Shown here: one piece after another, positions 2,203 through 64,000 of the stretch
Numbering within the stretch: the stretch's first letter is position 1
How the letters are laid out: every line of letters begins with the position of its first letter
Assembly (NCBI GenBank): GCA_030141605.1
Contig: JAQGDQ010000967.1
Coordinates: 1 to 64,000, forward strand
DNA length: 64,000 nt
Reading direction: 5' to 3'
Source of the DNA: Tubiluchus corallicola
Lineage: Eukaryota > Animalia > Priapulida
Made by a program: the position numbers and the translations under genes
Notes under the pieces: generated by a model
Told to the model about the DNA's origin: nothing
The model's database searches: none
The model's input: the letters and a program-made list of their open reading frames with translations, nothing else

Positions 2203-2399
2203 CTATGGCAACAGTTTCGCTCCGCTGATACCTCGGACCGTGACCCTGTTCGGTCGGACCAATATGCCGTGATCCGGAGGGCAGGCGAAGTAGCGCACCC
2301 CCTGAACCGAGCCGTCATTCTTCCCTTTCGGAGACTTCAGCTCGATGCCGAGCCAAATTCCATCCGCGAATTCCACGTCTCCGATAAACCTTACCAAAC
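2203..2399 (-). CDS. CLIP4: CLIP4-like last coding exon, CAP-Gly 3 and stop
   Basis: GLVRFIGDVEFADGIWLGIELKSPKGKNDGSVQGVRYFACPPDHGILVRPNRVTVRGISGAKLLP*. Confidence 0.93.
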
Positions 2400-5982: not shown

Positions 5983-6018
<36 letters not shown>

Positions 6019-12000: not shown

Positions 12001-15000
12001 GCATCCCCCCCGCCCCCCCCCCCCGACCCCCGCAACACATTGTTTGTTCTGCTCGTGAAACTTCAGAGCATCTCAGGCTAAACAAATGTACTGGTAATGA
12101 CTTTCTTGGATACTGCGCCGTTTCCATGACGCCGAGTTTGTAAACAATGCTCCAAATATTCCACGATTCACGTTTAAACATTCAAAAAACTTTAAAAAAT
12201 ATTCCCCCCTCCCCTACTGACGTGTTTTGAGCTCGTGAGGTAGGACGGGAACAATTTTTTTCTAACTGGCCTAATCTATTTCTATTTTGTTTCAAGCAAG
12301 CCTGTATACTCAATACTAAGTAATAACATAGTACAGTTAGTAAAATAAATTTAACACATACACGCACACACACACACACACGCACACACACACACACACA
12401 TATATATAATAATCTTTATTTGTCATAAAAAATCGATATTCATAACTATAAAAGCATAAATGGAACATCGCAGCCTGAGAATAAAATTCACACAACTGTT
12501 AAAGGCAAATGCGTCCAGTGCAAACTAAAAACTACTGTGCCAAAAATTTAAAACAAATATACATTATGATGTTACACGCAAATTATAATAGACTATATAC
12601 AATATATGCATACAATTTAAAATGGACGTGCGTAAATAAAATTTGCGGATGAATGTATATTATCGTTTACGCATGTAGGATTTTCAAAACGATTTAATGT
12701 ATGTATTTTTAATTTTGATTTGAATTCGTCAAAAGACTTGATTTGTTTTAAATTTGATGGCAGGGTATTCCAAAGTTGAACTCCTTGTTTAGTGATAGAA
12801 TTGTTGCCGTATTTGTTATTAGCGCGTGTTTGTTTAATATTGTGCGTTCTTGGATTTAATGTTGGCTCCAAGAGGAGTGGAAGCTTATTTTTCATGAAGG
12901 GCGTGTTAATATTGTTGATGTGTTTATATAAAAACAGGATTGTGTAGAAGTCTTTATGTGCTTGTAAAATTGGGATTTTAAACATTGTTCTTAATTCTGT
13001 TGCAGAGGTTTGATTTGTTATGAGGGAAGTTTTATTTGAATAGCCAGAGACTAATCTTAATGCATAATTTTGAAGACTATAACAACGGTCGGTCATCAAT
13101 TGCTCACCTATGGGCAGCCGTCCTAAATGATCCCGCACGGTGGGACATGCACCGTGTTGCAACAGCACCTTGACCGCACCACTACTCAGACTGTTGGCGG
13201 CTATGTGTAATCCCGTGCCGTTGTCAAACTCGCGGCAAACGGAGTCCACATCTGAAAGAAAACAAAGTGGACATCAGTAATGTCATCAGTGGACATCGGA
13301 CAAGCTGCTTCGGCCGAATCTGTAAGCCGTCGGCAAGCATAATAATGACGAACTTTTCACATGTTAAACTAGCATTCTACAACTCGAACACTGATTACAC
13401 CAGGGGTGTGCAAACTACGCGACTAACCGGGCCACATTAAACTTTCTGCGGACCGCTTACAGTTTGATCAAGGAGCCAAGAATAGTGGGACCTCATAACG
13501 ATTTTTTTTTGCATTCGACCTTTGCAGGTTATTACTAGGACACTCAAGAAAACTGTTCTAGAAGTTATTAAAATTTACATTAAAAACCGTAGATTTCAAC
13601 TTCCATAGTCAGATACTGGTGATTTCATTACAATGCATATTAGTACAGTGTATCACACAGTCTGTGTAGTACGGTGAGTTTAACCTGTCTTGAAATACTT
13701 CTTCAATCTTCCTCTTATAGTTTGATTATTAATTTTCTTACAGAATTGAAGAAGAAACAAAAACGCTTCTTAATGAGAGTTTCAATCAAGGATCAAATGA
13801 TTAGTTACATAATTAGCTACACGTTGTGATTGAATGAATGAATGCTGTAAATCAAGTTAATTGTTCGGTTCAGTTTCAAATTTCCTCGAAAGTCATTAAG
13901 CCTCGTAGCCGAACTTTCGGACAATGTTCCTGATTTCAGAATGTAGATATTTTTAAGTTTTAATAGTAGAACCTGACTAAAAATTCCTCATCTTTGCACT
14001 TTAACCTCACCAAAAGTTTCTCATCTTTGTACTTTGACCTCACAAAAAGTCTCACCTTTGCACTGTGACCTCACCAAAAGTTTCTCACCTTTGCACTTTG
14101 ACCTCATCAAAAGTCTCACCTTTACATTGCAATTTGACCTCAACATATATTTTTCATGTTCACATTGTGACCTCACAAAAGACTTTCAACTTTGCACTTT
14201 GCACTTTGACCTCACCAAAAGTTTCTCACCTTTGCACTTTGACCTCACCTAAAGTTTCTCACCTTTGCACTTTGATCTCACCAAAAGGTTCTCACATTTT
14301 CACTTTGACCTCGCCAAAAGTTTCTCACCTTTGCACTTTGACCTCACCTAAAGTTTCTCACCTTTGCACTTTGATCTCACCAAAAGGTTCTCACATTTTC
14401 ACTTTGACCTCGCCAAAAGTTTCTCACACCTTTGCACTTTGACCTCACCAAAAGTTTCTCACCCTTGCACTGTGACATCACCATAAGTCTCACCTTTACA
14501 TTGCAATTTGACCTCAACATATATTTTTCATGTTCACATTGTGACCTCACAAAAGACTTTCAACTTTGCACTTTGACCTCACCAAAAGTTTCTCACCTTT
14601 GCACTTTGACCTCACCAAAAGTTTCGCACCTTTTCACTGTGACCTCACCAAACGTTTTTGACCTTTGCACTTTGACCTCACCAAAAGTTTCGCACCTTTT
14701 CACTGTGACCTCAGCAAAAGTTTCTCACCTTTGCACTTTGACCTCACCAAACGTTTCTCACACTTGCAATTTGACCTCAACATATATTTTTCTTTGCACT
14801 TTGACCTTGCTTACTGTTTGAACACGACTCACTTACCTCTGAACTCTGACCTCTCTTAATTCTGCACTCTGACTTCTCTTACCTTTGCACTTTGACCTCG
14901 CTAGAAGTTTTTCAATCACAGGAGAGACATCAAAGAAGGCAGCATAGTGCAGTGCGGACATGTTTGTCCATCGAGAGCGCAAGCTTGTATCCGCTCTCTT

Positions 15001-17090
15001 GTTGAGTAAATCGGACACAACCGAGACCGCATTTTCACCATCACCTACAAATTATAACAGAAGATAAGTGACTCGTGTCAATTTGAACAAATGAATGTGA
15101 TAACGATAAAAATAAAATCATTGCACTAACACAAAGAGAAGATAATCACTCTAGCCTGTCATTTTTTATGAAGACGTATCAGTAGCCCTACAGCAGACAG
15201 CTTAACGAAATTTGAGTTAAATTCTTTTTAACTAAATTTAATTTTTAACTAAACTTACCCACACTGGTACATCCAAGTTCATACACTATTCTACTTACCA
15301 ACACTGGCTCATCCAAGTTCATACACTATTCTACTTACCAACACTGGCTCATCCAAGTTCATACACTATTCTACTTACCAACACTGGCTCATCCAAGTTC
15401 ATACACTATTCTACTTACCAACACTGGCTCATCCAAGTTCATACACTATTCTACTTACCAACACTGGTACATCCAAGTTCATACACTATTCTACTTACCA
15501 ACACCAGAACATCCAAGTTCATACACTATTCTACTTACCAACACCGGAACATCCAAGTTCATACAGTATTCTACTTACCAACACCGGAACATCCAAGTTC
15601 ATACACTATTCTACTTACCAACACCGGAATATCCAAGTTCATACAGTATTCTACTTACCAACACTGGCACATCCAAGTTCATAACCTATTCTACTTACCA
15701 ACACCGGAATATCCAAGTTCATACACTATTCTACTTACCAACACTGGCACATCCAAGTTCATACACTATTCTACTTACCAACACTGGTGCATCCACTTTC
15801 ATACACTATTCTACTTACCAACAATGGAACATCCAAGTTCATAGTACATACACTATTCTACTTACCAACACTGGAACATCCAAGTTCATAACCTATTCTA
15901 CTTACCAACACCGGTGCATCCACATTCATACACTATTCTACTTACCAACACCGGAACATCCAAGTTCATAGTTCATACACTATTCTACTTACCAACACTG
16001 GAACATCCACATTCATACACTATTCTACTTACCAACACCGGTGCATCCAGCTCTCACAGCATAATGGAGAAGCGTCATGTCGGTTTGCCCGTCTCGATCA
16101 TCTACATGTGCACCTCTTTTCATGATCTAAAATAAAAAATAGTCGACCCTCTTTTATTAACCTGCACCCACCTGCAAGCAAAAGACTCCGGTTCAAATCC
16201 ACTCTTAACATTTTTTCACTTATTTGTTTTTCAACTTAAAGCTTTTGCAAAAACTTCAATAACTGTGTGTTTAATCCATCATTAAAATACACATGTGTCA
16301 ATGTCAGCACCACTACCATAGTACTTTAGTAAAAAAACATTGGTTGGAAAAAAATTTAGCAATCAATTTTGATTTTAGCATGGATTTAACAAGCGTGAGC
16401 ATCGAGCGTTCAAACTCGATTCAAACATGTTTTTTTACTACAAGTTAGATGCGAACCTAAAACTATTAATTCGAATAATTCAGCACTTCAACTACATGCA
16501 TTCTTTATCTATAAAATGTTTGAAACATCAGAAAATCGTCGCAGTTCAGCTGAGATTTATGCACAGAATTTTTAAACAAATTATTGGTGTTTTTGCAGTG
16601 GAATAAAATCGAGCAATATGCACGATCTTCGTGAGACCGCTTTATAATAGTGATTCAAAAATATATCCAAAAATCATTAAACTGAAATGATGAAAATCGG
16701 TTTGGCTAGAGTTCGAAATTGACAAAATCAATTTGATTCGAATTCGCTTTCTGGTAGATAATGTTCACACGTAGTATTTAACACATAATGAACAATATCA
16801 AAATGAACATGCAAACGAATAATTACCTCGTCGATTAACACATGGATGTTCTCTTGAATATCCGGTACCCATTGCCGCATCACTGCGAACAACTGAGGAA
16901 CGGAAGTCTTTGGATTGCGTAGCATCTCCATACAACTGTTACAGGTCGCGGAGAAAGTGGGTGCGTCGCTCTTTCGACACGCTTCGCACACCGGCGGGTC
17001 AGCCGCTGGGTGCACCATGGCATGGTCCCGCTGTGGTACCTGGAAATCCACGAGGGTGAATGCCCCGCCGCTTTCTTCGCTTAACGTCAT
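2203..17090 (-). CDS. CLIP4: CAP-Gly domain-containing linker protein, CLIP3/CLIP4 family (CLIP4-like); whole spliced CDS, 11 exons, ~752 aa
   Basis: Exons 17090-16827, 16126-16033, 15044-14883, 13251-13108, 11603-11347, 9919-9784, 8824-8447, 7814-7691, 6653-6279, 3058-2931 and 2399-2203 all have GT/AG ends and compatible phases, and sum to 2259 nt (753 codons incl. stop). The N-terminal LFAVMRQWVP motif, ankyrin repeats (DRDGQTDMTLLHYA; SLRSRWTNMSALHYAAFFD; GTGLHIAA) and three CAP-Gly domains (GKNNG, GKNNG, GKNDG) match the family. Three CAP-Gly domains and the C-terminus VRPNRVTVRGISGAKLL favour CLIP4 over CLIP3. Confidence 0.92.
2425..2725. repeat. Minisatellite, 47-bp unit (two related subunits), in the last CLIP4 intron
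   Basis: CATTGCCAC recurs at 2425, 2472 and onward. Confidence 0.9.
2931..3058 (-). CDS. CLIP4: CLIP4-like exon, start of CAP-Gly 3
   Basis: RNRSTLL...KYGFNLAEGMQVFINGEF-G; 128 nt, phase 2-1. Confidence 0.85.
3405..5397. repeat. Minisatellite, 29-bp unit CTCACTCTCAGTGTTCAGTGCAGGACACT, ~68 copies
   Basis: Highly homogeneous 2-kb array; it generates the long repetitive ORFs. Confidence 0.97.
5858..6172. repeat. Degenerate (TCAA)n microsatellite
   Basis: Direct inspection. Confidence 0.9.
6279..6653 (-). CDS. CLIP4: CLIP4-like exon, Ser/Pro-rich linker
   Basis: RLSSKRATT...SRPSSAPSQKIHT; ttaacag| ... AG|GTAAAA; 375 nt, phase 2-2. Confidence 0.85.
7691..7814 (-). CDS. CLIP4: CLIP4-like exon, CAP-Gly 2 core
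   Basis: GFWYGIELDDPIGKNNGTVKGVEYFHCDDKHGIFSPPARVK; 124 nt; donor GTAAGT. Confidence 0.92.
7923..8105. repeat. 54-bp tandem repeat, ~3.3 copies
   Basis: CATTTTTCGGATGGCA at 7981, 8035 and 8089. Confidence 0.9.
8447..8824 (-). CDS. CLIP4: CLIP4-like exon, end of CAP-Gly 1, Ser-rich linker, start of CAP-Gly 2
   Basis: GIFAPVSKV...DVSLGDRVVVAGICKGTVRFTGYTGFAS; 378 nt, phase 1-1. Confidence 0.9.
9100..9480 (+). repeat. Dispersed repeat; second copy at ~41110-41410
   Basis: Shared CATTATTTCAC...CGCTAGTTGGC...GTCCACTTAGAGGCTCTCT in both places. Confidence 0.8.
9784..9919 (-). CDS. CLIP4: CLIP4-like exon, CAP-Gly 1 core
   Basis: VGVLRFIGETKFASGVWAGVELEEAAGKNNGTVLGVEYFACKQNH-G; 136 nt. Confidence 0.93.
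10510..11043 (-). mobile_element. 5S rRNA-headed retroposon-like insertion (SINE3-like), flanked by an 11-bp TSD
   Basis: Direct repeat ATATCACACAG at 10499-10509 and 11044-11054; 5S head followed by a ~430-bp GC-rich body. Confidence 0.75.
10936..11045 (-). pseudogene. 5S rRNA-derived sequence lacking the first ~10 nt
   Basis: The - strand reads ATATCACGTTGAAAACACCGGTTCTCGTCTGATC...AGTTAAGCAAC...GGTTAGTACATGGATGGGTGACTGCCTAGGAATACCAGGTGCTGTAGGTTT, which is metazoan 5S with CpG-type substitutions. Confidence 0.9.
11347..11603 (-). CDS. CLIP4: CLIP4-like exon, linker and start of CAP-Gly 1
   Basis: ECIPDPQ...RAMLLEVMP...ELRVGDRVLVSGLK; 257 nt, phase 1-0. Confidence 0.9.
12408..13075 (-). mobile_element. 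3' remnant of an L2/CR1-group LINE (end of ORF2 plus tail)
   Basis: LQNYALRLV...NKYGNNSITKQGVQLWNTLPSNLKQIKSFDEFKSKLK is a typical C-terminus of the L2/Crack/CR1 group; 3' end ...ATGACAAATAAAGATTATT. Confidence 0.75.
13108..13251 (-). CDS. CLIP4: CLIP4-like exon, ankyrin repeat 3
   Basis: DVDSVCREFDNGTGLHIAANSLSSGAVKVLLQHGACPTVRDHLGRLPI; ttctttcag| ... |GTGAG; 144 nt. Confidence 0.92.
13401..13590 (-). mobile_element. Partial hAT-like MITE (reverse complement of the 3' part of 48570-48947)
   Basis: CAGGGGTGTGCAAA terminus; internal match to ~48750-48947. Confidence 0.7.
13985..14860. repeat. Tandem array, ~33-bp unit derived from the CLIP4 exon end plus donor at 14883
   Basis: - strand unit GAGAAACTTTTGGTGAGGTCAAAGTGCAAAG-GT versus exon end GAAAAACTTCTAGCGAGGTCAAAGTGCAAAG|GT. 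Confidence 0.9.
14883..15044 (-). CDS. CLIP4: CLIP4-like exon, ankyrin repeat 2
   Basis: DGENAVSVVSDLLNKRADTSLRSRWTNMSALHYAAFFDVSPVIEKLLARSKCK; 162 nt, phase 1-1. Confidence 0.92.
15254..16050. repeat. Tandem array, 40-bp unit spanning the CLIP4 donor at 16033, ~20 copies
   Basis: - strand unit GGATGTACCAGTGTTG|GTAAGTAGAATAGTGTATGAACTT; the first unit is the real exon end GGATGCACCGGTGTTG|GTAAG. Confidence 0.95.
16033..16126 (-). CDS. CLIP4: CLIP4-like exon, ankyrin repeat 1
   Basis: IMKRGAHVDDRDGQTDMTLLHYAVRAGCTGV-G; ttttag| ... |GTAAG; 94 nt, not in the ORF track. Confidence 0.92.
16827..17090 (-). CDS. CLIP4: CLIP4-like first coding exon (ATG at 17090; exon begins at 17120 after an acceptor)
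   Basis: MTLSEE...PKTSVPQLFAVMRQWVPDIQENIHVLIDE; upstream acceptor tgaattgcag; donor GAG|GTAATT. Confidence 0.9.
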
Positions 17091-17182
17091 GATTCGGTCA
17101 TTGTACAGTGTTTACGAAATCTGCAATTCATAGGAAATCTAACATGTAACTCATCATCTTATCATTGAGGATCATCTCTGTG

Positions 17183-24923: not shown

Positions 24924-24987
24924 ATGAATGGAGAGATTCCCAACGTGCCGATCATGACGTTGGCGGGAATCGTCAGCTTGTCTGACT
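24924..24987 (+). CDS. NIPBL: NIPBL first coding segment (exon 24770-24987 includes 5' UTR)
   Basis: ATG at 24924; MNGEIPNVPIMTLAGIVSLSD; acceptor ctcccacag| before 24770; donor T|GTAAGT. Confidence 0.93.
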
Positions 24988-27960: not shown

Positions 27961-28008
<48 letters not shown>

Positions 28009-36153: not shown

Positions 36154-36224
<71 letters not shown>

Positions 36225-39200: not shown

Positions 39201-39436
39201 TAGTTATAAGAGCTAATTATAAAATCGTACACGTAAATTTTTCCAAGTTAAATGCTATTAAATTCGTCAGTTCATCAAATTTGTCTCTAATCCCTGTTGC
39301 TTTGGCAAGTTTAGGGCAGCAGTGTCAGTTGGTGTGTTGGGTTCTATTGTTGATCAGCAAATTATCATATATTTATTTACTTACTGACTGGCTGACTGAC
39401 TTACTTATTTTCTTACTTACTTATTTATTTATTTAA

Positions 39437-39467
<31 letters not shown>

Positions 39468-45400: not shown

Positions 45401-45769
45401 AACGGGCAGCTGCCAACTCCTCCTACACCTTTGCAACACCAGTCACCCAAGTGTTCTGTACAAAACTCCACGTTACAGCCGTTCATTAAATCAGGTACAA
45501 CTTTGGATAATTACAGTAAGTCCTCTCTTAACGACGTTCCAGAGAGATGCGACGTTAAGTGAAACGTCGTTAAATGAAACCAAGACTTCCCTAGGAAGTA
45601 ATGTGAAAGAATCGAGATTCGTTCCAGAATCAAAAATGAATGCTGCTTAAATCATATAAATTAAATGTTTTATCTGTTTTACTCGTCTTTCTACTGATTA
45701 ATTTCTTTCTGCTTGCTTGAAGCCATCTATATATGTGTTACTTACCTAGCTAACAGTTTCTTGAATCCA

Positions 45770-45806
<37 letters not shown>

Positions 45807-51800: not shown

Positions 51801-54800
51801 GATGTGATACGAGTGATGTGGATGTGATACGAGTGATGTAGATGTGATACGAGTGATGTAGATGGACAAATAGGCTGTTTAGAAACTGGTTTGTTCTGCA
51901 CTAAAATCTTGTTTCGTTTACTCCAGGATCGGATATTGGCCAAGAGACACGCTTCGCTTTTAGTTGCCAAATCCGGCGGACCGACCAAGCGGCGTGATCT
52001 GTACAGCGTGCAAAAGGAGCATCGATCGCGAATGCGCCTCTCCGCCTTCGACGACGACGATTACGACAACGACTGGAGTCCTACCGGCAAGATTAAAAAG
52101 AAAAGTAAGACTGTACGACAATTCCTGATGGAAAATGTGTCTCATTCGTGTAAATTACTTTGCAGCGTCATTTTTAGACGGCCATTTTTGGACATGTTAA
52201 CGATAACGATAACGATACGGCAATTATCGTATTTAGTTATTTGCATTTATCATTATTGTACATATCGGTGATGTAACGGATACGAGAAAACATCTTAGGT
52301 TGCATAGTTGTTTATTCTAAACAAAGAAAACAAATAAACAAATAATAGAAACAAATTACACAGAAAATTTAAAGCAAACGTGCGATTGTCTGACATACTG
52401 AAACTTACAATATGAAAATAAAGCTGTCGTAATGGAAAATACAATATTAAAAAGTACAGAAAGTAATTTATACTGCAAATGGCTATTGTCTGACATACTG
52501 AAACTTACAATATGAAAATAAAGCTGTCGTAATGGAAAATACAATATTAAAAAGTACAGAAGGTAATTATCTGCAACAATATGAAAATAAAGCTGTCATA
52601 ACGGAAAATATGATATTAAAAAGTACAGAAAGTAATACATGCTGCCAATATTCTGTAGCACTAAATCAACAAAAACCTTTTCTAGACTAATTACATTTCC
52701 TGCCACACTGTCTAATTACGTTTCTAAGTTACTAAACACAATTCAAATTACTTAATTATATATAATTATTGCTTACATCATTGCATCGGTCTTGAGACAA
52801 ACAAGTTAAGGTTCGGGTGCACTAACAGTAGAAAATTAAATAACTAGCAAAAAAATACCAATGTAAATACATCTCACACGCACTACTGACAACCAAAACG
52901 TTCCTGTATATTCAAACCACCAATAATACCTACTGTTTAAAACGCATTGAGCCAGTGAACCAAGACAAAGGGTGCAAAAATCATTGACAAACGATACGCA
53001 ATCTTAAGGCGCGACATTTACTGACGCGTCTGTTACAGATGTTATCTATGAATATCATTATGATGTTATCTATGAATATCATTATGATGTTATCTATGAA
53101 TATCATTATGATGTTATCTATGAATATCATTATCATAGCAAATTCAATGCGTTGTTCTGCTTATCAGTCAATTTTATCAAATCATTTTACTTTCCCTTTT
53201 CATTTATGTGCAGGAGTTGTTCAGAATAAAATAAAAATTAGAGTTATTTTTTGAGTTGTACCTCCAAAGGTTGTTTGAATAATTTGCTTTGCTGCCCTGA
53301 TAGCGACATTCGGATTAATCACACAGGAATGTCAAGTGCGGAATTTTTACAGGTGTTTTCCCCAGTTATGTATAGACAGTACTACTCCCATATATAAGTA
53401 TCAATAATAGATACAATGCATACAAACAATTTCAATTTTGAAATATACAAAAAACAAGACATACAAACAATTTCAATTTTGTAATATGCAAAAAAAAAGC
53501 AAGACACAATTTCAATTTTGAAATATAATGACACTATATACAAACAAAACAATTACTAATAAAACAAATATTATTACATCTTCCTGTTGTATCTTATAAT
53601 CTGAAAAACAGATTATCAATATCGTATCTTGTCGTTGGAAAAAAGTATCGTATCTTATCTCCAAATTTGTATCGTTTAACATCCTTAGATATTTTCCCTT
53701 TTTGTGATGGGTAAACGATTCTCTATTGAGTTGCGATTCGATATTTGTTTTACATTTCTTCCCTAATACAGGGTTCGCACGATCAGGGAAAGTCCTGGAA
53801 AGTCCTTGAAATTAGAGGCAGGCTATCCTGGGAAAGTCAGGAAAAAGATAATTTGATATAAAAGTCGGGGGGGAAAAATGTTGAAAATGGGGCAAAAAGT
53901 CAGAGAAATTGGAAAGGGTTGCAAAAATAATCACCGGGAATTGATATTTTTCCAAACATATTTTTGAGTGATTCGTGTCCAAATAGAATTTTGCTACGGC
54001 AGGTTCCCAGATTCAATTTCTGTTCCAAAAATCACGATTGGCCGACACATTATATATCAGTACACGTATGAATGTCCATACACAAAAATGTTTGAATACG
54101 TATACTGGTAATGAAATTTCTGCTTATCTTGGTCATGGAAAATCAATATTTGGTCAGGGAAAAGTCAGGGAAATTTATTTTAAAATTTTGTGGGAATCCT
54201 TCTAATAACTCATCCAGTAAAGTGTTTTTTGTGCATCCCCGTTTTTCGTACTGGACAGAATAAATTTCGTGTCAGTTTTTTGCATTTACAATATCTGAAA
54301 TTCATTCATTGCCATGGCAGCAACCAGTCAGTAGCCGTGTTCTTTGTTAAATCGTTAATGTAAATAATTTTACAGACAAGAAGCGAAAGTACGAGGACGA
54401 CGATTCGCCGGTAGCTCCGTGGGAACAATCCAACTTTTACACGACGTTGAGCGAAAGGGTTAAACGTAGAAAGCGGGCCGTGGTCGACGAAGAGGGACAC
54501 AGTAGCGGAGGCGAAAGCTTCTGTGCTGCCCCTATTGGCTGTAAGTAACTTTCTGTAACAAAGGGCATGTTTTGAGTTTGCAAAAAGTTTGACGGGGCAA
54601 ATTTTTGCACAAAATACTTGATTAAAGAAAGATTTGACCCAGTCTAAAACTGTTTGCAATATTCAAAATATGGAAACGGAGCATGCTTTTTTTAAAGAAT
54701 GACTTGCCGGAAAGAATTAGACTGGCACTAGCACCTGCATTTTGCCGTTTGCTAGTTAGACGGGCACTAGCGCCTGCATTTCGCCATTCGTTAGTTAGGC

Positions 54801-57800
54801 GGGCACTAGCGCCTGCATTTCGCCGTTCGTTAGTTAGACGGGCACTAGCGCCTGCATTTCGGCGTTCGTTTGTTAGACGGGCACTAGCGCCTACATTTCG
54901 GCGTTCGTTTGTTAGACGGGCACTAGCGCCTACATTTCGCCGTTCGTTAGGTAGACGGGCACTAGCGCCTACATTTCGCTATTCGCTAGGTAGACGGCCA
55001 CTAGCGCCTGCATTTCGCCATTTGCTAGTTAGACGGGCACTAGCGCCTGCATTTCGGAAATGCACTGCACAAAAACAGGTGCTGTACTTTTCAGTTCAGA
55101 TGTGTTATTTGTGACATTGTGCATGCGTTTCACAGCTCATGCTTGAACATCACGGAAAACTTGAAATTTGAATTTTTATTTTAAAACTTGCCTAGTTTTA
55201 GTATAAGACACTGAATTTCTTACAGTAGCACTGTACTTCAATTTTCTCTTTCGCAAACACGTGCAACACGCTCGTGGAATATTTTTGCTGTTGAAAATTA
55301 TGTTAGTTTGTGATGTCGTCAATAGTTGGACTCGCCCGTTGTTAATTAAGTTCTTAATCTATTACTTAATTATCAGAAATGCTTTTGCAGTATTAATTGT
55401 GTTAAAATGTATACTTTTTATCGGACTTGAAAATGGGGTATTATATGAAAAATCAAAGCGTCTGCTGCATCAGTTCACTAACTTCAATTGTTTTATATGG
55501 ACTTTACTTAATTATGCATTAGTCTATGCGTAGAGTGATTTACTAGCAGGATCTTGCTTGATAACAAGAAAAAATGAACTAGGCAAGGTTCTAGCTAGCT
55601 GTTAAAACTGTTACTATTACAGTAGCATGGGCTGTGAGGTGTTGACAAATGCGTTGTCTGGTACACTTAACCTTTGACCTTTTCACGATCATCAATCACT
55701 GGACAAGAACTTTGCCAACGAAAATTTGATTTTTTTTTGGAAACAGTTAATTTACCTGATTAATTGGTTTTTGCAAGACTGAACCTGCAGCTAGCGGCTT
55801 TAACAAAAGAAACCCGATTTTTCATCTTGTTTTTGCACTTTTGCTGTCAGAGGAAATGCGGTTGCTATGGTGATGTTCTTGCACTTGCTAACCATTGTGT
55901 TTCGTAACTTTACAGTGCCGAAGAAGAAGAAGAAGAAAGGGCACAGAGAAAGTGAGAAAGCTCTTACGGCCGAAGGTAAGTAAACAGTGTAGACAGGGAT
56001 GTTACCGAAACTAAAATTACTGTTTATCATTTATTGTTTATTTATTTCACACAAAACAAATACGTAATTAATACATTAAAAGAAACAGAAAATTATCAAT
56101 AATTCAATGCATAACAGTAATAATTGCAGAAAAAAAATTAGTATTTGACCAAATTTTTGATGCGTTGTACTTTGAAGCTTCATAACATAGTTTTAACTCT
56201 GCAGACTTGTTGATGGCTTTAGTTTTCAAGCTCAAAAATTAGACATATGCTGCTTAGCTGCTGTAATATAATGTTTTTGATACTCCATCTAGTGATGGGC
56301 GATTGCGAAATTTTCTAATTCGATTACAATCTTGTTCCTGTAATTCGATATCACGATTTTAATCTTTTGCATTAATTTTTTTTTTGGTTTTTATCCATGT
56401 TCTGCAAACATTGCAGCATTTGCAGCGGTGAAATAGACTTCATGGGTTTCAACACTGTCTGCCATTTTCATACAAACTACATTTATAAACACGTACATTC
56501 AATAACTACTCTATTACTATGTGAATTACACACGTCATGTGAAAGCGAATAAGAAGCCCCGGTTTGCAACACTGTGGTTTGCAATTGTGCGCATTGTGTA
56601 AGGTGAGAAAAACGAAGAAGAAAAAATCCAAGAATTCCGTTTATTTGTGTTAAAATTCTGCCTTTCAGTCGGTGTGTAACGCGTATATTTTGCTCTTGAT
56701 TAACTGAATTACTGTTCAATGGCCGATATATCATTTTATACGTGGCTGTTAATCGCCCGTCACTGTGCCCCCTTGACCACTTGATGAAGCCAACCGCATA
56801 GATGCTTTCTCAGTAGTGAGATGCTATTTACTGTTGCCGGCATTTTCTTTCCGTCCAACACTTTTCACATGTCATTTTCTCGTTTGCCCGCAGAGCTGAT
56901 GGACACGGGAACGTTCCGTAAGTTCAACCATGCAATGGAAGCCGTGTTTGATAGCATAGATGAAGTGGACGTTGCAGTCGATCAGGGTAAGTCCGTGTTT
57001 GATAGCATAGATGAAGTGGACGTTGCAGTCGATCAGGGTAAGTCCGTGTTTGATAGCATAGATGAAGTGGACGTTGCAGTCGATCAGGGTAAGTCCGTGT
57101 TTGATAGCATAGATGAAGTGGACGTTGCAGTCGATCAGGGTAAGTCCGTGTTTGATAGCATAGATGAAGTGGACGTTGCCGTCGATCAGGGTAAGTCCGT
57201 GTTTGATAGCATAGATGAAATGGACGGTGCAGTCGATCAGGGTAAGTCCGTGTTTGATAGCATAGATGAAGTGGACGTTGCAGTCGATCAGGGTAAGTCC
57301 GTGTTTGATAGCATAGATGAAATGGACGGTGCCGTCGATCAGGGTAAGTCCATGTTTGATAGCATAGATGAAGTGGACGTTGCAGTTGATCAGGGTAAGT
57401 CCGTGTTTGATAGCATAGATGAAGTGGACGTTGCAGTTGATCAGGGTAAGTCCGTGTTTGATAGCATAGATGAAGTGGACGTTGCCGTCGATCAGGGTAA
57501 GTCTGTGTTTGATAGCATAGATGAAGTGAACGTTGCCGTCGATCAGGGTAAGTCCGTGTTTGATAGCATAGATGAAGTGAACGTTGCCGTCGATCAGGGT
57601 AAGTCCGTGTTTGATAGCATAGATGAAGTGGACGTTGCAGTCGATCAGGGTAAGTCCGTGTTTGATAGCATAGATGAAGTGGACGGTGCAGTCGATCAGG
57701 GTAAGTCCGTGTTTGATAGCATAGATGTCGTGTTGCGACGATGTAACTAGTACTTGATGTGGTTGTTCAAACTATGCTGAAATTTTACTGCTTGGGTATT

Positions 57801-60800
57801 CAACTGTTTACTGTTTTGTGTTTGTATTATATTATATTATATTATATTATATTATATTATATTATATTATATTATATTATATTATATTATATTATATTAT
57901 ATTATATTATATTATAATATATTATATTATATTATATTATATTATATTATATTATATTATATTATATTATATTATATTATATTATATTATATTATATTAT
58001 ATTATATTATATTATATTATATTATATTATATTATATTATATTATATTATATTATATTATATTATATATTACATTATATTATGTTATATTATATAGCAAT
58101 GTCAGTGAAGTTTGTACTGCTTTTCTAATTTGTGGCATCCTGCTCTGTGTTAAAGAATCTATCACTTGCTGTAATTAACTCAACATGAACTGTGTGTTGC
58201 AGAAGACGATGACGCATGTCCGCCGGAGATTGTGATATCAAGATCCGCGTTACACGATCTGGTACACGAAGCTGCCAAACTAAAAGCCATGGGCGTCATG
58301 GACTCTGTAAGTGGACGTGTTCCGTCTTGCACGCTTATCAGAGTGTTACGGCTTCGTTACCGAGTAACTTGTGTCGTTTGTTAGTTGTACCACCGTATAG
58401 TTGTGACCTTTGACCTTTGCTTACCTTCTAGTGTGCCTTGGGCAACTTCGTTCTTTCCTTTTTTGTTATTGTCACAGGGTTCCCACGGTCAGGGAAAATC
58501 CTTGAAAATACAGGCTATCCTGTTCAAATAAAATTTTGCTATGACAGGCTCCCAGTTTCAATTTTTGTTCCAAAAATAATGATTGGCCGACACATTATAT
58601 ATCAGTACATGTATGGATGTTCATACACAGAAATGTTTGAATATGTATGCTACCATGTTTAGATCTTTCCCTTTAAAGTGTAAACAAGAGTTCAGAAAAA
58701 AGAATGCTCTAAAATATTGAAAACTACAATAGCCTTTTTTAAATCAACGCTTAGTGCTTGACGCACAAGGGAAGATGCCTGTCATTGCACAAACTGTGGT
58801 TAGTTTCTGACATAAGCAATAGCTGTGTTCAGTTGCCATTAATTAACTTTCTAAGCTAATTATTCAAATATAAGGAACAATTGTTAACTTTGATAGGCAA
58901 GAAAATGTATATTTTGGACAGTAAATTAAAATGAGATTGACTCTAAACAATCGTCCGGTTTTCCTTTAAAGAAACTTGAACCGTATTTTCGCCAAAATTA
59001 TAATTTCACATTTGCTAACGTATCCTACTATTCCTGCATTTGAGAATTGCTTATCTGTCGTCGTGGCAACTAGCTTAAGAGTCTCTGTGTGTTACAGATA
59101 AGTACGTCACGCTTAGTGAAGTTATTAGTGATACTAGAACGGAACATTCGTGATGCAGCTCGGCTCTTGCTAAGCCTGGGTGATGTGAGTATGAAGTTCA
59201 AATTGTTCAATTTCAAACTCATTCTTCAAACCTTGTTCAATTTAAATGTTTTTTTACTCTACGTATGTAATGTTTTGAACAGGAATCTTTCAAGCTCATT
59301 GTTCAAACTTCGTTCAATTTAAATGTTTTTTTTACTCTACAGATGTAATGTTTTGAACAGGAATCTTTCAAGCTCATTGTTCAAACGTTGTTCAATTTAA
59401 ATGTTTTTTTTACTCTACGTATATAATGTTTTGAACAGGAATCTTTCAAGCTCATTGTTCAAACGTTGTTCAATTTAAATGTTTTTTTACTCTACGTATG
59501 TAATGTTTTGAACAGGAATCTTTCAAGCTCATTGTTCAAACGTTGTTCAATTTAAATGTTTTTTTTACTCTACGTATATAATGTTTTGAACAGGAATGTT
59601 TCAAGCTCATTGTTCAAACGTTGTTCAATTTAAATGTTTTTTTACTCTACATATGTAATGTTTTGAACAGGAATCTTTCAAGCTCATTGTTCAAACGTTG
59701 TTCAATTTAAATGTTTTTTTACTCTACGTATGTAATGTTTTGAACAGGAATCTTTCAAGCTCATTGTTCAAACGTTGTTCAATTTAAATGTTTTTTTACT
59801 CTACATATGTAATGTTTTGAACAGGAATCTTTCAAGCTCATTGTTCAAACGTTGTTCAATTTAAATGTTTTTTTACTCTACATATGTAATGTTTTGAACA
59901 GGAATCTTTCAAGCTCATTGTTCAAACGTTGTTCAATTTAAATGTTTTTTTACTCTACGTATGTAATGTTTTGAACAGGAATCTTTCAAGCTCATTGTTC
60001 AAACGTTGTTCAATTTAAATGTTTTTTTACTCTACATATGTAATGTTTTGAACAGGAATCTTTCAAGCTCATTGTTCAAATATTGTTCAATTTAAATGTT
60101 TTTTTACTCTACATATGTAATGTTTTGAACAGGAATCTTTCAAGCTCATTGTTCAAACGTTGTTCAATTTAAATGTTTTTTTACTCTATGTATGTAATGT
60201 TTTGAACAGGAATCTTTCAAGCTCATTGTTCAAATATTGTTCAATTTAAATGTTTTTTTTACTCTACGTATGTAATGTTTTGAACAGGAATCTTTCAAGC
60301 TCATTGTTCAAACATTGTTCATTTTAAATGGTTTTTTTACTCTACGTATATAATGCTTTGAACAGAATCTGTAAAGTTTGTTTTCATTTCCTGTTCCGTT
60401 TTCATCTGTTTACCAAAGATAATTACGACTTGGTTAATTACAGAACGACAACGAGGATGAAGAACTCGCTTGGCAAGAGATCATCATCGAGCGCGTGATG
60501 CGGAGTCAAAACGCAGCGCTGACCGCAATGTTCATAATGACGTCTCCCAACATGCCGAAACAGGTGAGCGTTTGTCATCAGTTTACACCTGGAGACATAG
60601 ACATAGAACATTTATTTTCTCTAATTAGTTTAACATCAAAAGTTTGTTAAATATTAAGTAATTATAATCATGGTGCAGGGCAGGGAAGGACCATAGGGTC
60701 ATCTGTTCTCCTGCCCATATTGAGAAGGGCAGCGAAGCACTATAGGGTCATCTAGTCTCCTGCCCACATGGAGAAGGGCAGTGAAGGACCAAAGGGTCAT

Positions 60801-63747
60801 CTAGTCTCCTGCCCACATGGAGAAGGGCAGTGAAGGACCAAAGGGTCATCTAGTCTCTTATATATAGATATAGATATATATATATAGTATATTAAAAATT
60901 AACGGTGATGCTGCGAATAACAAAAACAAAAACAAATAAGAAAAAAATAATAAAAACAGTATAAATGATACAAATTATCCAAAAAGAACTGAAAACAAAA
61001 AATAATAAGGTTAGATACCTAAATCTAAACAAAACAATACAATTATTCAGTAATTATGATTATTATATGTAGTAGTTTCAAATGGGGTCTTATTAACAGG
61101 GGAATTTGACCAAGGTTAGTGAGTAAAGTTAAAAACTGAGAGAAAAAATAAGCATCAAAAAAGTGTAATATAGAAAAATTTATGAGAAAAAGTAAGTATG
61201 AGAAAGAGCAACAATTACTTAGGAGATGAGGAGAAAAAAGAAAAGAAAAAACTTGCTAGCTTGCTTATTAGTCTTACAAGTTATGTACTACAGGTATATC
61301 CATTTAGTAAGATTTTTGGGTATGTTTTGGAAGCAGAAAATAAGCTGAGTGTGGAGAACTGAGTGTGAATGCAAGTAGCAGTTTGAAAGTGGCTTAACTG
61401 GACTTGCCACCTGCTTTGCAGAGCAGTTAGCTAAAGGTTTGCCATATTGCCCACATAGCACTGATGATGAAACCCGCAATGGAAATTTCGATTCTCGAAA
61501 TGTCTGGGGGGTTTTTGTAAGAAAGAATAAAATTTTAGCATTCCACGAATCCCCGGCTACCCACGGTTTTTGTCCCACTTTGGAAAGGTAATCAAACTTG
61601 AACTTGTTCATACCTGTTCGTACTCTAGTAAGCCATGTTTTTCTTTGTCTCTCATTGTTCTTTTTGCCAGGTACACGGCTAGAAAAAACAACAAAACTTC
61701 TCTTATAAGACAATCTATAAACACTACTTACTTCATTATTACACTTATTACTTTATTATTACACTTATTACTTCATTATTACACATTTTACTTCATTATC
61801 ACACTTATTACTTCATTATTACACTATTATTACACTACTTACCTCATTATTACACTACTTACCTCATTATTGCACTACTTACCTCATTCTTACACTAATT
61901 ACTTCATTATTACACTTATTACTTTATTATTACACTACTTACCTCATTACACTACTTACCTCGTTCTTACACTAATTACTTCATCACACTACATTATTAC
62001 GCTACTAACCTCATTACACTACTTACCTCATTATTACACTACTTACCTCGTTATTACACTAGTAATCTCTACACTGCTTACCTCATTATTACACTACGTA
62101 CTTTATTACTTCATTATTGTTTTGTTTAGGTTTATTTGGAAGACGTCATCGAGCGCTCTGTCAGCTTCGCGCAATTTCACCTGCAGAATACCATTTATGG
62201 AGCTTACGATCCGGTCTACAAGGTGGCGCCCAACTCTCGCGGTAAGTTTGTGAGGCGTGAGTCGGAGAAGCGTTATTGTGGTAGATGGTAAATGGTTTTT
62301 GTATCGGGATTCTCGGGTAACACTGAGTACTCTACGTGCAGGGACATGTTAGTGAAATTGAAATTGCAAATTGAAATGGAAATCATAATTTGCGAGGCGT
62401 AGACAACTGATACCAAACGAAACCGAACCGAAATCATTATTGCGAGACTAATTACCGTCAAAACTGAAAAAAACCCGAAATTAATAAAATCCCAGCAAAA
62501 AAGGTAGAACGATGTTTATGGTTAGAAATCATGATGCTTTGAATAAATGAACAAATTTTATTTTCTTAATATTTCGTTGCCTACATTTCATAAATTATCA
62601 AATTATATTCAAATGATGCTTTGATATTTCGGTTGATTGTGCCTGGAGACCTTGACAGTCATCAGCACTGAAGATGTGCCGCGTTGCCGTAAGAAGCATG
62701 CTACAAATGGTACAGAAAGCTATACAAACTATATGTACGCTTTACAAATATATATATATATATATTTGTATATAAATATATATATAAGATTCGAGGCTAC
62801 AGCTCCGACGACGGCACCATTTGCGGTGAGCTATATATCAAATGAAAGGTCTCGATCTAGTGTCGTGCGTGCCATTGGGGGTTTATTTTTGGAATCGGGC
62901 GCACCGGGAGGAACGGGGGGCGAAAAACCTCCAAAAATGGCCATTTTTCGGCAGTTCTTTGCAAAACTTATACCTCTTATTTCTGAAGAACTGGAACGGG
63001 CCGAGGGTGATGCTGGCTATGGGTAGATAGCCTGTTCAGCGGTGGGTGTCATAGGTCTATTTAGAATTTGCGAGAGGGTCACGGCGTCCCGTAACGGGCG
63101 TTTCCTGGACCCAACTCGCGATTTTTTCGAAATTTTGACCAAACAGCATGCGGAAAAAACGTTCTAGTGGCGCCCGGTGGGACTCTTGGAAGGAGATATA
63201 TGGCTCTTTAGAAAGAGGAAGAACGGGGCTGCACGATGATGTGGGCTATATGTTGGGACACGTCCAACAAGAGGAGTACCGACGAGTTAATTAGATGTTC
63301 TATTTTTGGCAATTTTCGCTTAGAAAACTGCTGACGCAAAGCCATTGATCTGACGTCATCCATTATACTCTGTCTATAACCTTATAATGTAAAAGCTGCT
63401 ACAGGCTTTGTGTTATAAATGAGGACTACGTAGGATGTTTGCGTATTATTGATTATAACTATATTTATGCGCAAAATTTTTGCGGGGCCTTTGCTAATAT
63501 ATATATTAATAGCAATATTGTTTAAACACTTATGTTTCTGACTTTAATTTTTTCATCGTGTTTTTTATCTTATTTATATTTCTCTTTTACAGAGGCTTTA
63601 GCAACTAGTAATCGTATGAAGCGGAGTCGGGCGCACGCTGTAACGTCTAGGCCTATTATTTCTCTGTATAATAAACTGGTTGATCTAGTCGGAACTTTTG
63701 CTGATTTAGTGGAGATACAAGCGCTGACGGATACGACTGTGTTACAG
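24924..63747 (+). CDS. NIPBL: Nipped-B-like cohesin loader (NIPBL/Scc2), 5' portion; 16 coding exons, 763 codons, continues past the window
   Basis: The N-terminus MNGEIPNVPIMTLAGIVSLSDLLPELPLPTPLPST matches the conserved NIPBL start. Later exons give LMDTGTFRKF, EAAKLKAMGVMD, LVKLLVILERNIRD, IMTSPNMPKQVYLEDVIER, FHLQNTIYGAYDPVYK and LYNKL...EIQALTDTTVLQ, all characteristic of NIPBL. Exon phases are consistent; total 2289 nt. Confidence 0.95.
29075..29447. repeat. Minisatellite, 16-bp unit ATGACGTATGCTGTAC, ~23 copies
   Basis: Direct inspection. Confidence 0.9.
32644..33111. mobile_element. Degenerate hAT-like MITE with internal tandem GAGACAAGGGGC repeats
   Basis: CAGGG...CCCCTG ends; near-matching 8-bp flanks CCTAGAAG/CTTAGAAA. 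Confidence 0.55.
33205..33330. repeat. GC-rich ~38-bp tandem repeat x3
   Basis: CTCGACCAC...CACCCCCGCAGCGTCGTGAATGG repeated. Confidence 0.85.
34120..34270. repeat. 51-bp tandem repeat x3
   Basis: ACGCGTGCCGCATGC...GCAGTACTTGGTG repeated. Confidence 0.85.
35040..35150 (+). mobile_element. tRNA-derived SINE head fragment
   Basis: A-box-like TAGTTCGAGAAGG and B-box GGTTCAACTCC, followed by a non-tRNA body ATACCAAAGATTTAAAAAATGG; no closable acceptor stem seen. Confidence 0.55.
36141..36249. repeat. (GATA)n microsatellite
   Basis: Direct inspection. Confidence 0.95.
37043..37683 (+). mobile_element. MITE family B copy
   Basis: TTAAAGCAAAACCGGATCCAATC...CTTCCTTTAA. Confidence 0.8.
38278..38679. 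mobile_element. hAT-like MITE with GGAGTC subterminal repeats
   Basis: TIR GGGGCTGTGGAGT/ACTCCACAGCCCC; degenerate 8-bp flanks ATTAACAT/GTTAAGAT. Confidence 0.7.
40193..40361 (+). CDS. NIPBL: NIPBL exon
   Basis: LLPELPLPTPLPSTMTNKSF...RDGNLVTQVAHALGKTSTDG; ttttttgcag|; 169 nt. Confidence 0.92.
40400..40914. mobile_element. MITE family A, TTAA TSD, TIR AGGAAAACCGGA(T/C)GATTGT (Kolobok-like); internally deleted copy at ~58680-58965
   Basis: TTAA at 40396-40399 and 40915-40918; terminal inverted repeats visible. Confidence 0.85.
41445..41660. repeat. ~33-bp pyrimidine-rich tandem repeat just upstream of the NIPBL acceptor at 41706
   Basis: TTTTACATTGCCCAA..CTGTCT recurs ~6 times. Confidence 0.85.
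41706..41806 (+). CDS. NIPBL: NIPBL exon
   Basis: IEMKDDSAM...PEILKMALLKNSNILKHH; 101 nt; donor GTGAGT. Confidence 0.88.
41840..42128. mobile_element. Degenerate Tc1/mariner-like MITE
   Basis: TA-flanked; inverted GTCGACTTAC/GTAAGTCGAC near the ends. Confidence 0.5.
42208..42714. mobile_element. Intact pogo/Tc1-mariner-like MITE, TA TSD
   Basis: TA-CAGTGGCCGCCGCTTATTGTGGACAC ... GTGTCCATAATAAGCGGCGGCCACTG-TA; subterminal TGTCCATATTAA repeats. Confidence 0.9.
42758..43378 (+). mobile_element. MITE family B copy
   Basis: Colinear with the 17183 and 37043 copies; ends GTCTTCCTTTAA. Confidence 0.8.
43964..44194 (+). CDS. NIPBL: NIPBL exon (low-complexity region)
   Basis: GLSNRFPVYQH...FPAQGQ; 231 nt, phase 1-1; strong splice sites. 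Confidence 0.8.
45381..45494 (+). CDS. NIPBL: NIPBL exon (alternative in-frame end at 45515)
   Basis: GTSSATINGQLPTPPTPLQHQSPK...FIKS; 114 nt, phase 1-1. Confidence 0.72.
45514..48079. mobile_element. Tc1/mariner-like element (same family as 9960-11274) containing a 1.9-kb satellite; fills almost the whole intron
   Basis: TA-CAGTAAGTCCTCTCTTAACG ... CATTAAGCGAGGACTTGCTG-TA. Confidence 0.82.
45893..47790. repeat. Minisatellite, 76-bp unit, ~25 copies, each with GTTACTAT(A/G)GCAAC
   Basis: Period 76 (45970, 46046...). Confidence 0.97.
48201..48323 (+). CDS. NIPBL: NIPBL exon
   Basis: ETPPDASQP...YQQHCA; ttttag| ... |GTAAG; 123 nt. Confidence 0.8.
48570..48947. mobile_element. hAT-like MITE
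   Basis: GGGTGTGCAAA...TTTGCACACCCCTG; flanks AATTACAA/ATTTACAA; GGCCCG subterminal repeats. Confidence 0.75.
49287..49699 (+). CDS. NIPBL: NIPBL exon
   Basis: GTSEAQAPVPPSP...KDKKQRKSKKK...ARVMLQPLSES; 413 nt, phase 1-0. Confidence 0.85.
51588..51863. repeat. Minisatellite, 20-bp unit GATACGAGTGATGTGGATGT, ~14 copies
   Basis: Near-perfect array ~60 nt before the acceptor at 51927. Confidence 0.97.
51927..52104 (+). CDS. NIPBL: NIPBL exon
   Basis: DRILAKR...FDDDDYDNDWSPTGKIKKK; 178 nt; donor A|GTAAG. Confidence 0.82.
53038..53132. repeat. 24-bp tandem repeat x4
   Basis: GATGTTATCTATGAATATCATTAT. Confidence 0.9.
53769..54200. mobile_element. Non-autonomous DNA element with CAGGGTTC(G/C)CAC termini; deleted copy at ~58475-58660
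   Basis: CAGGGTTCGCAC...GTGGGAATCCT; GTCAGGGAAA subrepeats; shared interior ATTGGCCGACACATTATATATCAG. Confidence 0.7.
54376..54540 (+). CDS. NIPBL: NIPBL exon
   Basis: NKKRKYEDDDSP...TLSERVKRRKR...APIG; 165 nt; not in the ORF track. Confidence 0.85.
54720..55056. repeat. 39-bp tandem expansion (~9 copies) inside a MITE family B copy
   Basis: GGCACTAGCGCCTGCATTTCG is single-copy in the other family members (~17372, ~37248). Confidence 0.92.
55916..55975 (+). CDS. NIPBL: NIPBL exon (Lys-rich, NLS-like)
   Basis: LPKKKKKKGHRESEKALTAE; 60 nt; donor G|GTAAGT. Confidence 0.88.
56894..56986 (+). CDS. NIPBL: NIPBL exon (first of 15 possible donors)
   Basis: ELMDTGTFRKFNHAMEAVFDSIDEVDVAVDQ; 93 nt. 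Confidence 0.9.
56942..57727 (+). repeat. 51-bp tandem array made of the NIPBL exon end plus donor, 15 full copies, in frame
   Basis: Unit CCGTGTTTGATAGCATAGATGAAGTGGACGTTGCAGTCGATCAGG|GTAAGT encodes VFDSIDEVDVAVDQGKS. Confidence 0.97.
57825..58095. repeat. (ATTAT)n microsatellite
   Basis: Direct inspection. Confidence 0.97.
58203..58306 (+). CDS. NIPBL: NIPBL exon
   Basis: EDDDACPPEIVISRSALHDLVHEAAKLKAMGVMDS; 104 nt. Confidence 0.92.
59098..59184 (+). CDS. NIPBL: NIPBL exon
   Basis: ISTSRLVKLLVILERNIRDAARLLLSLGD; 87 nt. Confidence 0.92.
59230..60368. repeat. ~78-bp tandem array, ~15 copies, filling most of a NIPBL intron
   Basis: TTGTTCAATTTAAATG(T)nACTCTAC...GAACAGGAATCTTTCAAGCTCA repeated; T-run length varies. 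Confidence 0.95.
60444..60563 (+). CDS. NIPBL: NIPBL exon
   Basis: NDNEDEELAWQEIIIERVMRSQNAALTAMFIMTSPNMPKQ; 120 nt. Confidence 0.94.
60597..61680 (-). mobile_element. Possible degraded non-LINE-assigned retrotransposon 3' remnant, including a 50-bp x3 repeat at 60680-60860
   Basis: - strand ends GAAAATAAATGTTCTATGT(CTATGT); an interrupted frame reads ..IISAMWAIWQ.., reminiscent of L1/Tx1 ORF2 C-termini; weak evidence. Confidence 0.3.
61720..62118. repeat. Degenerate ~20-bp array CATTATTACACTACTTACCT abutting the acceptor at 62130
   Basis: Direct inspection. Confidence 0.85.
62130..62241 (+). CDS. NIPBL: NIPBL exon
   Basis: VYLEDVIERSVSFAQFHLQNTIYGAYDPVYKVAPNSR; 112 nt. Confidence 0.94.
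63593..63747 (+). CDS. NIPBL: NIPBL exon
   Basis: EALATSNRMKRSR...LYNKLVDLVGTFADLVEIQALTDTTVLQ; 155 nt. Confidence 0.94.
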
Positions 63748-63759
63748 GTGAGGGGAAAA

Positions 63760-64000
63760 TCAAGTTTGTCTGTTTTGCAGCTGTCAAGTTTGGTAGTCAC
63801 AACTTTTTGTTGAATGTCAATGATGTAGCCTTTGTGATTATCAAGTTTGTCCGTTTTGCAGTTGTCAAGTTTGGGAACCACGACATTTTGTTGAATGTCT
63901 TTTGTAAATGATGTACCTTTGTGATTATCAAGTTTGTCTGTTTTGCAGTTGTCAAGTCTGGTAGTCGCGGCTTTTTGTTGAACGTCTTTTGTAAATGATG
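63760..64000 (+). repeat. 81-87-bp tandem array resembling an acceptor plus the start of the next NIPBL exon (truncated by the window end)
   Basis: TCAAGTTTGTC at 63760, 63841 and 63928; each unit has TTTTGCAG|(C/T)TG TCA AGT (T/C)TG G.. Confidence 0.85.

What the first reader, a model, noticed from the sequence alone, without database searches (positions are those of the whole stretch)
13985..64000. Recurrent 'splice-site echo' tandem arrays: introns built from copies of their own exon junctions
Seen in sequence: at least four unrelated arrays in two genes have units that straddle a real splice junction. These are the CLIP4 donor at 16033 (40 bp x ~20), the CLIP4 donor at 14883 (~33 bp), the NIPBL donor at 56986 (51 bp x 15) and apparently the acceptor of the next NIPBL exon (81-87 bp). 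That is four in about 26 coding introns. Many other arrays (2425, 41445, 51588, 59230, 61720) also start within ~60 nt of a junction. Inference: either a mutational process focused at exon boundaries (e.g. splicing- or R-loop-coupled slippage, or rolling-circle amplification), or neutral survival because extra copies fall inside the intron as long as the outermost site is chosen. Either way the spliceosome must pick one site among 15-20 near-identical ones, which implies a positional 'first donor / last acceptor' rule or tunable isoform output.
Basis: partly seen in the sequence, partly recalled or inferred. Interest (0 to 1): 0.85.

Follow-up and report, generated by a model that had tools for sequence, protein, structure and literature searches.

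The report
Splice-junction "mirage" repeats in two genes
Two neighbouring animal genes (a CLIP3/4-like gene and NIPBL) carry three intronic tandem repeats built from copies of their own splice donors and a fourth likely copied from a splice acceptor, a repeat type already described in lancelets ("mirages") and a few human genes, likely harmless because splicing would use only the copy that adjoins the real exon.

Summary
Both gene models close without a stop (26 coding introns, 51 junctions). Three of 51 junctions are reiterated in the adjacent intron: CLIP exon 2 donor (19 extra copies), CLIP exon 3 donor (24 degenerate copies) and NIPBL exon 11 donor (14 extra). A fourth array at the window end matches the next NIPBL exon by protein homology.

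This is a named class: amphioxus 'mirages' (PMC3087553) and human F7/CBS minisatellites, where the most upstream donor was shown to win (PMC1557585). This scan has noted the same thing in at least 11 other genomes (unchecked notes).

Enrichment at junctions is weak: 4 observed against 1.2-1.5 expected per base (P 0.03-0.06, post hoc), and 3 against 2.6 conditional on the host intron. Arrays do lie close to exons (10 of 29 within 65 nt against 3.9; P 0.003). Repeat-filled intron interiors may explain that.

In three of the four arrays every extra site gives a frameshift or stop; only the NIPBL 51-bp array is in frame. No RNA covered these exons, so site usage is untested. Low interest.

The parts
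2203..17090 (-). CLIP3/4-like gene (ankyrin + CAP-Gly), 11 coding exons, 10 introns, 752 aa
16033..16126 (-). CLIP exon 2; authentic donor after 16033 (phase 1)
15253..16049 (-). 40-bp mirage: about 17 exon bases + 23 intron bases, 20 donors in all; read-through of the first donor meets an in-frame stop at once
14883..15044 (-). CLIP exon 3; authentic donor after 14883 (phase 1)
14828..14899 (-). degenerate 23-bp echo of the exon 3 donor, with a strong out-of-frame donor at +46
13971..14807 (-). 33-bp mirage (28 exon + 5 intron bases), about 25 copies, 77% TRF matches; all lie beyond an in-frame stop
24924..63747 (+). NIPBL (Nipped-B) 5' part, 16 coding exons, 763 aa open frame, continues beyond the window
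56894..56986 (+). NIPBL exon 11; authentic donor after 56986 (phase 1)
56942..57727 (+). 51-bp mirage (45 exon + 6 intron bases), 15 identical donors, all in frame and without stop (17 aa per unit)
63593..63747 (+). NIPBL exon 16 (phase-0 donor)
63759..64000 (+). 81-87-bp acceptor mirage: about 41 intron bases + about 40 bases of the next NIPBL exon; 3 copies in the window, each frameshifted with a stop at codon 11; cut by the window end
2424..2699 (.). 47-bp array ending 24 nt before the CLIP exon 11 acceptor; no junction in the unit
41445..41662 (.). 30-bp array ending 43 nt before the NIPBL exon 3 acceptor; no junction in the unit
51586..51864 (.). 20-bp array ending 62 nt before the NIPBL exon 8 acceptor; no junction in the unit
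59211..60370 (.). 77-bp array starting 26 nt after the NIPBL exon 13 donor; fills an intron that collapses to 176 nt; no junction in the unit
61721..62101 (.). 20-bp array ending 28 nt before the NIPBL exon 15 acceptor; no junction in the unit

Best explanation
Three arrays are tandem copies of a splice donor with its exon end and a fourth is likely a copied acceptor; they are likely tolerated by-products ('mirages') of ordinary local duplication in a minisatellite-rich animal genome, and splicing would use the copy adjoining the real exon. Steps: (1) Shown: units span the junction and the extra copies lie in the intron. (2) Inferred: a seed duplication of 33-87 bp by slippage or unequal exchange (the NIPBL array has short look-alike ends), then expansion and homogenisation, as the blocks of shared variants suggest. 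(3) Inferred from F7 experiments and exon definition: the most upstream donor is chosen, and the last acceptor, which is the only one followed by a whole exon. (4) Shown by frame: leaky use would give a frameshift or stop in three arrays, probably cleared by nonsense-mediated decay (inferred); in the NIPBL exon 11 array it would add 17-residue units in frame. No junction-specific mutation process is needed.
For: Junction echoes at 3 of 51 junctions, plus the homology match of the fourth. Tandem repeats fill 24% of genic DNA; 29 intragenic minisatellites. Conditional on the host intron, 2.6 straddling arrays are expected and 3 seen among 27 arrays (P 0.52); the CLIP E2 and NIPBL E11 introns collapse to 237 and 216 nt. 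Per base, 4 of 29 against 1.2-1.5 (P 0.03-0.06), in a window picked because it looked unusual. Frame analysis. Variant units recur in neighbouring blocks and the edge unit is the most diverged, as in amphioxus BflGb6 (PMC3087553, section 16 read). Most-upstream donor shown by mutagenesis in F7 (PMC1557585, abstract, introduction passages and Discussion read). Both NIPBL arrays appear in DNA contigs of public runs.
Against: Long arrays are junction-rich under the per-base null: 3 of 9 arrays with 10 or more copies against about 0.4 (P 0.003-0.007; conditional on intron 1.4 expected, P 0.12). 10 of 29 arrays lie within 65 nt of a junction or across it, against 3.9 (P 0.003). The conditional test is partly circular, because it accepts that arrays sit in short introns. 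The extra donors are not eroded: none of 13 variable columns of the CLIP E2 unit falls in the donor nonamer (nominal P 0.017; NIPBL P 0.23). In human CBS and 6-16 the next one or two pseudo-donors are used as well (PMC1557585, passage), so the rule can leak.
Confidence: 0.75

Rival explanations
1. Minisatellites are seeded or expanded preferentially at exon edges by a transcription- or splicing-linked process (pausing, R-loops, repair slippage), so mirages are the visible tip of an exon-proximal mutation bias.
For: 10 of 29 arrays within 65 nt of a junction or across it against 3.9 (P 0.003); 3 of 9 long arrays across a donor against about 0.4. The CLIP exon 3 donor was echoed twice, with 23-bp and 33-bp units.
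Against: The signal fades conditional on intron (P 0.52; long arrays P 0.12). Intron interiors are largely dispersed repeats: the 918-nt intron before NIPBL exon 11 scored 0 bases of dispersed repeat by self-comparison, yet most of it draws many multi-copy contigs, so the per-base null likely overstates the old unique sequence. One window, chosen after the fact. No mechanism was tested.
Confidence: 0.15
2. The arrays are functional: copy number tunes splicing efficiency or isoform output. In the NIPBL exon 11 array any of 15 donors gives a full-length protein with 0-14 extra 17-residue units next to an acidic loop.
For: All 15 NIPBL donors are identical, in frame and stop-free, with no indel in 15 units. 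Donor nonamers are intact.
Against: A period divisible by three arises one time in three. The unit is mostly a copy of coding frame, and only 7 columns vary (by my reading, 4 replacement and 3 silent), so an open frame is expected without selection. The other three arrays give stops or frameshifts at every extra site. Published mirages give no aberrant mRNA (PMC3087553, PMC3902484).
Confidence: 0.06
3. The arrays are assembly artefacts.
Against: Units carry patterned variants. Contigs of two studies end at the start of the 51-bp array (56939 in X1, 56942 in X3), and X1 depth there is 1,710-1,777 against 150-187 on single-contig flanks. Unit-sized contigs of the acceptor array occur in X1, X2 and X3. 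Caveats: X1 and X2 are one sample and could be the assembly's source; the tool warns that depth is no copy number; X3 depth is inconsistent (37 against 4 and 39).
Confidence: 0.04

Closest known systems
Amphioxus 'mirage' minisatellites: Adh3, globins BflGb6 and BflGb9, troponin C, PGBD5 (PMC3087553, section 16 and passages read; PMC3902484, one passage read; the naming paper, Canestro et al. 2002, was not held and is known only through these two)
   Same: Tandem units that span an exon-intron boundary, at both 5' and 3' boundaries; units of 10-160 bp; splice signals duplicated; concerted evolution with divergent edge units; several per gene region.
   Different: A different animal (best hits 59-69% identical, Priapulus on top; no Branchiostoma hit listed); 15-25 copies against 3-6 in BflGb6; normal splicing and length instability were shown there and are untested here.
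Human junction-spanning VNTRs: F7 IVS7 (37 bp), CBS IVS13, 6-16 intron 2, lamin B2, PDGF intron 4 (PMC1557585; abstract, introduction passages and Discussion read)
   Same: The first unit spans the exon-intron boundary, so 4-25 identical pseudo-donors follow the real one; the most upstream donor is used.
   Different: Donor side only in those examples, and scattered single loci; here four in 26 introns. Some human cases leak to the second and third donor.
Intron gain by duplication of an exonic AG|GT segment (Rogers model; PMC3265369, abstract and opening text seen)
   Same: A local tandem duplication copies splice signals.
   Different: There the duplicated segment is exonic and creates a new intron; here an existing junction is copied and an existing intron lengthens. 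No new intron is seen.

Membership tests
Mirage minisatellite | Repeat unit spans an exon-intron boundary of the host gene | tested here: met
   Direct for three donors; by protein homology for the acceptor array, whose source exon lies outside the window
Mirage minisatellite | Tandem array that duplicates GT or AG splice signals into the intron | tested here: met
   19 and 14 extra intact donors; 17 of 24 with GT in the older array; 3 AG copies
Mirage minisatellite | Minisatellite-size unit (10-160 bp in the cited cases) | tested here: met
   33, 40, 51 and 81-87 bp
Mirage minisatellite | Normal splicing at the authentic site, no aberrant mRNA | not testable with these tools
   No RNA holder listed; the one RNA-like run did not cover the exons
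Mirage minisatellite | Length instability between alleles or cells | tested here: inconclusive
   Only short contigs; none spans an array
Mirage minisatellite | Concerted evolution, edge units diverged | tested here: met
   By inspection only: blocks of identical neighbours and a divergent last unit in the 40-bp array; recurring variants in the 51-bp array
Intron gain by exonic tandem duplication | Duplicated segment is exonic, holds AG|GT, and yields a new intron | tested here: not met
   Units copy one end of an existing intron and each carries only one kind of site; intron positions in other species were not compared

The most novel reading that the evidence does not exclude
In this lineage minisatellites are born preferentially at exon edges through a transcription- or splicing-coupled process, so introns grow from copies of their own ends; and the in-frame NIPBL array lets the cohesin loader be made with a variable number of 17-residue units. 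Mirages would then be a general, measurable mutational bias across invertebrates, not a lancelet oddity.
Probability: 0.15. Interest if true: 0.6.

Novelty: new member of a known kind. Interest (0 to 1): 0.22.

Why it matters
As it stands, it extends mirage repeats to another animal lineage (likely priapulid-like) and shows that they can be dense: about one intron in seven in this window. Such arrays are natural test beds for splice-site choice among identical competitors outside mammals, and a trap for gene annotation (the 51-bp array reads in frame). It would matter more if a genome-wide test showed that repeats originate preferentially at exon edges. My searches listed no genome-wide survey of this kind, but the library lacks most subscription papers.

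Tried and rejected
No whole genome was held, so no genome-wide enrichment test was possible.

Sequencing runs: no RNA holder listed (no evidence either way on expression). Run X3 had a share (0.18) close to the exon fraction, so I suspected RNA, but it covers introns and behaves as DNA. RNA-like run X6 laid only repeat pieces or nothing. No contig shown carried the intact next NIPBL exon (21 records not shown; a filter drops some records).

A possible echo at the NIPBL exon 8 donor (score 24) was rejected as A-rich chance (null maximum 24). The five 'nearby' arrays were rejected as junction copies. The NIPBL exon search in the word-indexed database found nothing (lengths capped at 2000 aa).

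Paper searches returned 0 papers; 46 added nothing new; one listed one unrelated paper. PMC10078293 (passages seen) treats repeats that affect splicing but showed no junction-spanning class in those passages. Two papers I recalled were not held. No supplements were read; those of PMC3087553 hold the mirage alignments.

Rows dropped before counting: of the TRF output, 11 microsatellite or low-complexity arrays were set aside, overlapping rows were merged by hand, and arrays outside the two coding spans (8-516, 1048-1480, 21683-21739) were left out, leaving 29. The conditional test also left out the exon-internal array and the terminal array (27 left).

Full report
What I checked. The window holds two head-to-head animal genes. 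On the minus strand lies a CLIP3/4-like gene: exon 3 finds 31 homologues, Priapulus CLIP4-like on top at 69%, and tblastn places the exons. Eleven coding exons, all with AG/GT ends, join into 752 residues with no internal stop. On the plus strand lies NIPBL: exon 16 matches human NIPBL in the PDB, and 16 exons join into an open 763-residue frame that aligns with full-length homologues. No whole genome was held. The host has no close annotated relative (59-69% to Priapulus). Unchecked notes on the same genome call it priapulid-like, which my hits fit but do not prove.

The observation. I compared every junction with the window without gaps and with its own intron with gaps, using other introns as the null. 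Three of 51 junctions are echoed. The CLIP exon 2 donor (16033) sits in a 40-bp array with 20 donors, 19 sharing the same nonamer. The CLIP exon 3 donor (14883) has a degenerate 23-bp echo next to it and then an older 33-bp array: 24 extra places match 23-29 of 33 junction bases, and 17 of these keep GT. The NIPBL exon 11 donor (56986) is the first of 15 identical donors 51 bp apart. The array at 63759-64000 has three copies of an acceptor followed by LSSL(G/V)xxxF and, in shifted frames, V-E and N-V; 19 homologue matches give the consensus LSTLGVAPFFVENV for the residues after exon 16. It is therefore very likely a copied acceptor, but its source exon is outside the window. The five other arrays named lie 24-62 nt from a junction and do not contain it.

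Are the arrays real? For the two NIPBL arrays, likely yes. Contigs from two studies end at the start of the 51-bp array, and X1 depth over it is about ten times that of the flanks. Unit-sized contigs of the acceptor array occur in three runs, at depths suggesting more than three copies.

More than chance? Tandem repeats cover 24% of the genic DNA, and I counted 29 intragenic minisatellites after setting aside 11 simple repeats. With each array collapsed to one unit and placed at random per base, 1.2-1.5 should straddle a junction and 4 do (P 0.03-0.06). Among the 9 arrays with 10 or more copies, 3 straddle against about 0.4 (P 0.003-0.007). Ten of 29 lie within 65 nt of a junction or across it, against 3.9 (P 0.003). 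Conditional on the intron that holds each array, the excess goes: 2.6 expected, 3 seen, P 0.52; long arrays P 0.12. Several host introns shrink to 176-237 nt when collapsed. The conditional test is partly circular. The per-base test likely counts too much sequence, because intron interiors are filled with dispersed repeats that self-comparison misses (0 bases found in the intron before exon 11, but multi-copy depth over most of it). The window was also chosen after the fact. An exon-edge bias is therefore hinted at, not shown.

What the extra sites could do. Reading past the CLIP exon 2 donor meets a stop at once, so all 19 later donors are unproductive. At CLIP exon 3 the two candidates before the stop are out of frame and all the rest lie beyond it. 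The three acceptor copies in view have a stop at codon 11, and the first lies only 33 nt from the donor. Only the NIPBL exon 11 array is open and in frame at all 15 donors, 17 residues per unit. A period divisible by three is a one-in-three event, and a recent copy of coding sequence stays open by default. The pseudo-donors show no erosion (nominal P 0.017 for CLIP exon 2, 0.23 for NIPBL), so there is no sign of selection against decoys. No RNA covered these exons, so which site is used was not tested.

Mechanism, marked. Shown: anatomy and frames. Inferred: a short duplication across the junction by slippage or unequal exchange (the NIPBL array's left edge, unit joint and right edge share look-alike bases), then expansion and homogenisation (blocks of shared variants, divergent last unit). 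Inferred from the literature: the most upstream donor wins, and for acceptors only the last copy is followed by a complete exon. Leaks would be cleared by nonsense-mediated decay in three arrays (general knowledge, recalled).

Comparison with what is known. This is a described class. In amphioxus, tandem repeats spanning exon-intron boundaries are called mirages, occur at both 5' and 3' boundaries, vary in copy number and do not disturb splicing (PMC3087553, section 16 and passages read; PMC3902484, one passage). In humans, F7, CBS, 6-16, lamin B2 and PDGF carry junction-spanning minisatellites. Mutagenesis of F7 showed that identical downstream donors are functional but lose to the most upstream one, while CBS and 6-16 also use the next sites (PMC1557585; abstract, passages and Discussion). 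The naming paper was not held. I reached the mirage reading; the scan's own notes then listed 16 similar findings in at least 11 genomes (unchecked, not independent support).

Verdict. A real feature and a new member of a known kind. The structural tests for a mirage are met; the splicing and instability tests could not be run. Interest 0.22. The open point worth a genome-wide test is whether repeats are born near exon edges more often than the sequence available there explains.

Noticed in passing
run contigs laid on window 63651-63789: Runs X1, X2 and X3 each hold a contig with only the last 97 bases of NIPBL exon 16, three substitutions, a GT-to-GC donor and an insertion, preceded by several hundred unrelated bases; in X1 its depth equals that of the true exon. 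It looks like a separate partial exon copy with a weakened donor, perhaps a longer-unit mirage beyond the window end. A flank motif was not found in the window.
   Followed up: partly
window 41445-41662, 61721-62101, 2424-2699: Three arrays end 24-43 nt before an acceptor and carry branch-point-like words (motif recalled), so they may reiterate the branch point rather than the junction.
   Followed up: no
window 33206-33425: A 40-bp three-copy array in NIPBL intron 1, with a pyrimidine run and AG in two copies, runs into GC-richer sequence that ends in a donor-like GTGAGT; possibly an unannotated alternative exon with an acceptor echo.
   Followed up: no
window 11418-11483: A 27-bp in-frame repeat (2.4 copies) inside CLIP exon 5, a region longer than in the Priapulus protein.
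   Followed up: partly
window 17180-17809, 37060-37683, 42754-43380, 55057-55694: Copies of dispersed repeats of about 630 bp found by self-comparison, by eye one MITE-like family; the copy near 55057 has an internal 39-bp array (54717-55056).
   Followed up: partly
window 12617-13000 and 20154-20570: Open frames that by eye resemble decayed non-LTR retrotransposon ends (recalled resemblance, not searched).
   Followed up: no
window 17090-24924: The CLIP3/4-like gene and NIPBL are head to head, with start codons 7.8 kb apart; untranslated first exons were not located.
   Followed up: no
window 24988-40192: NIPBL coding intron 1 is 15.2 kb with no further gene evident from the ORF list.
   Followed up: no
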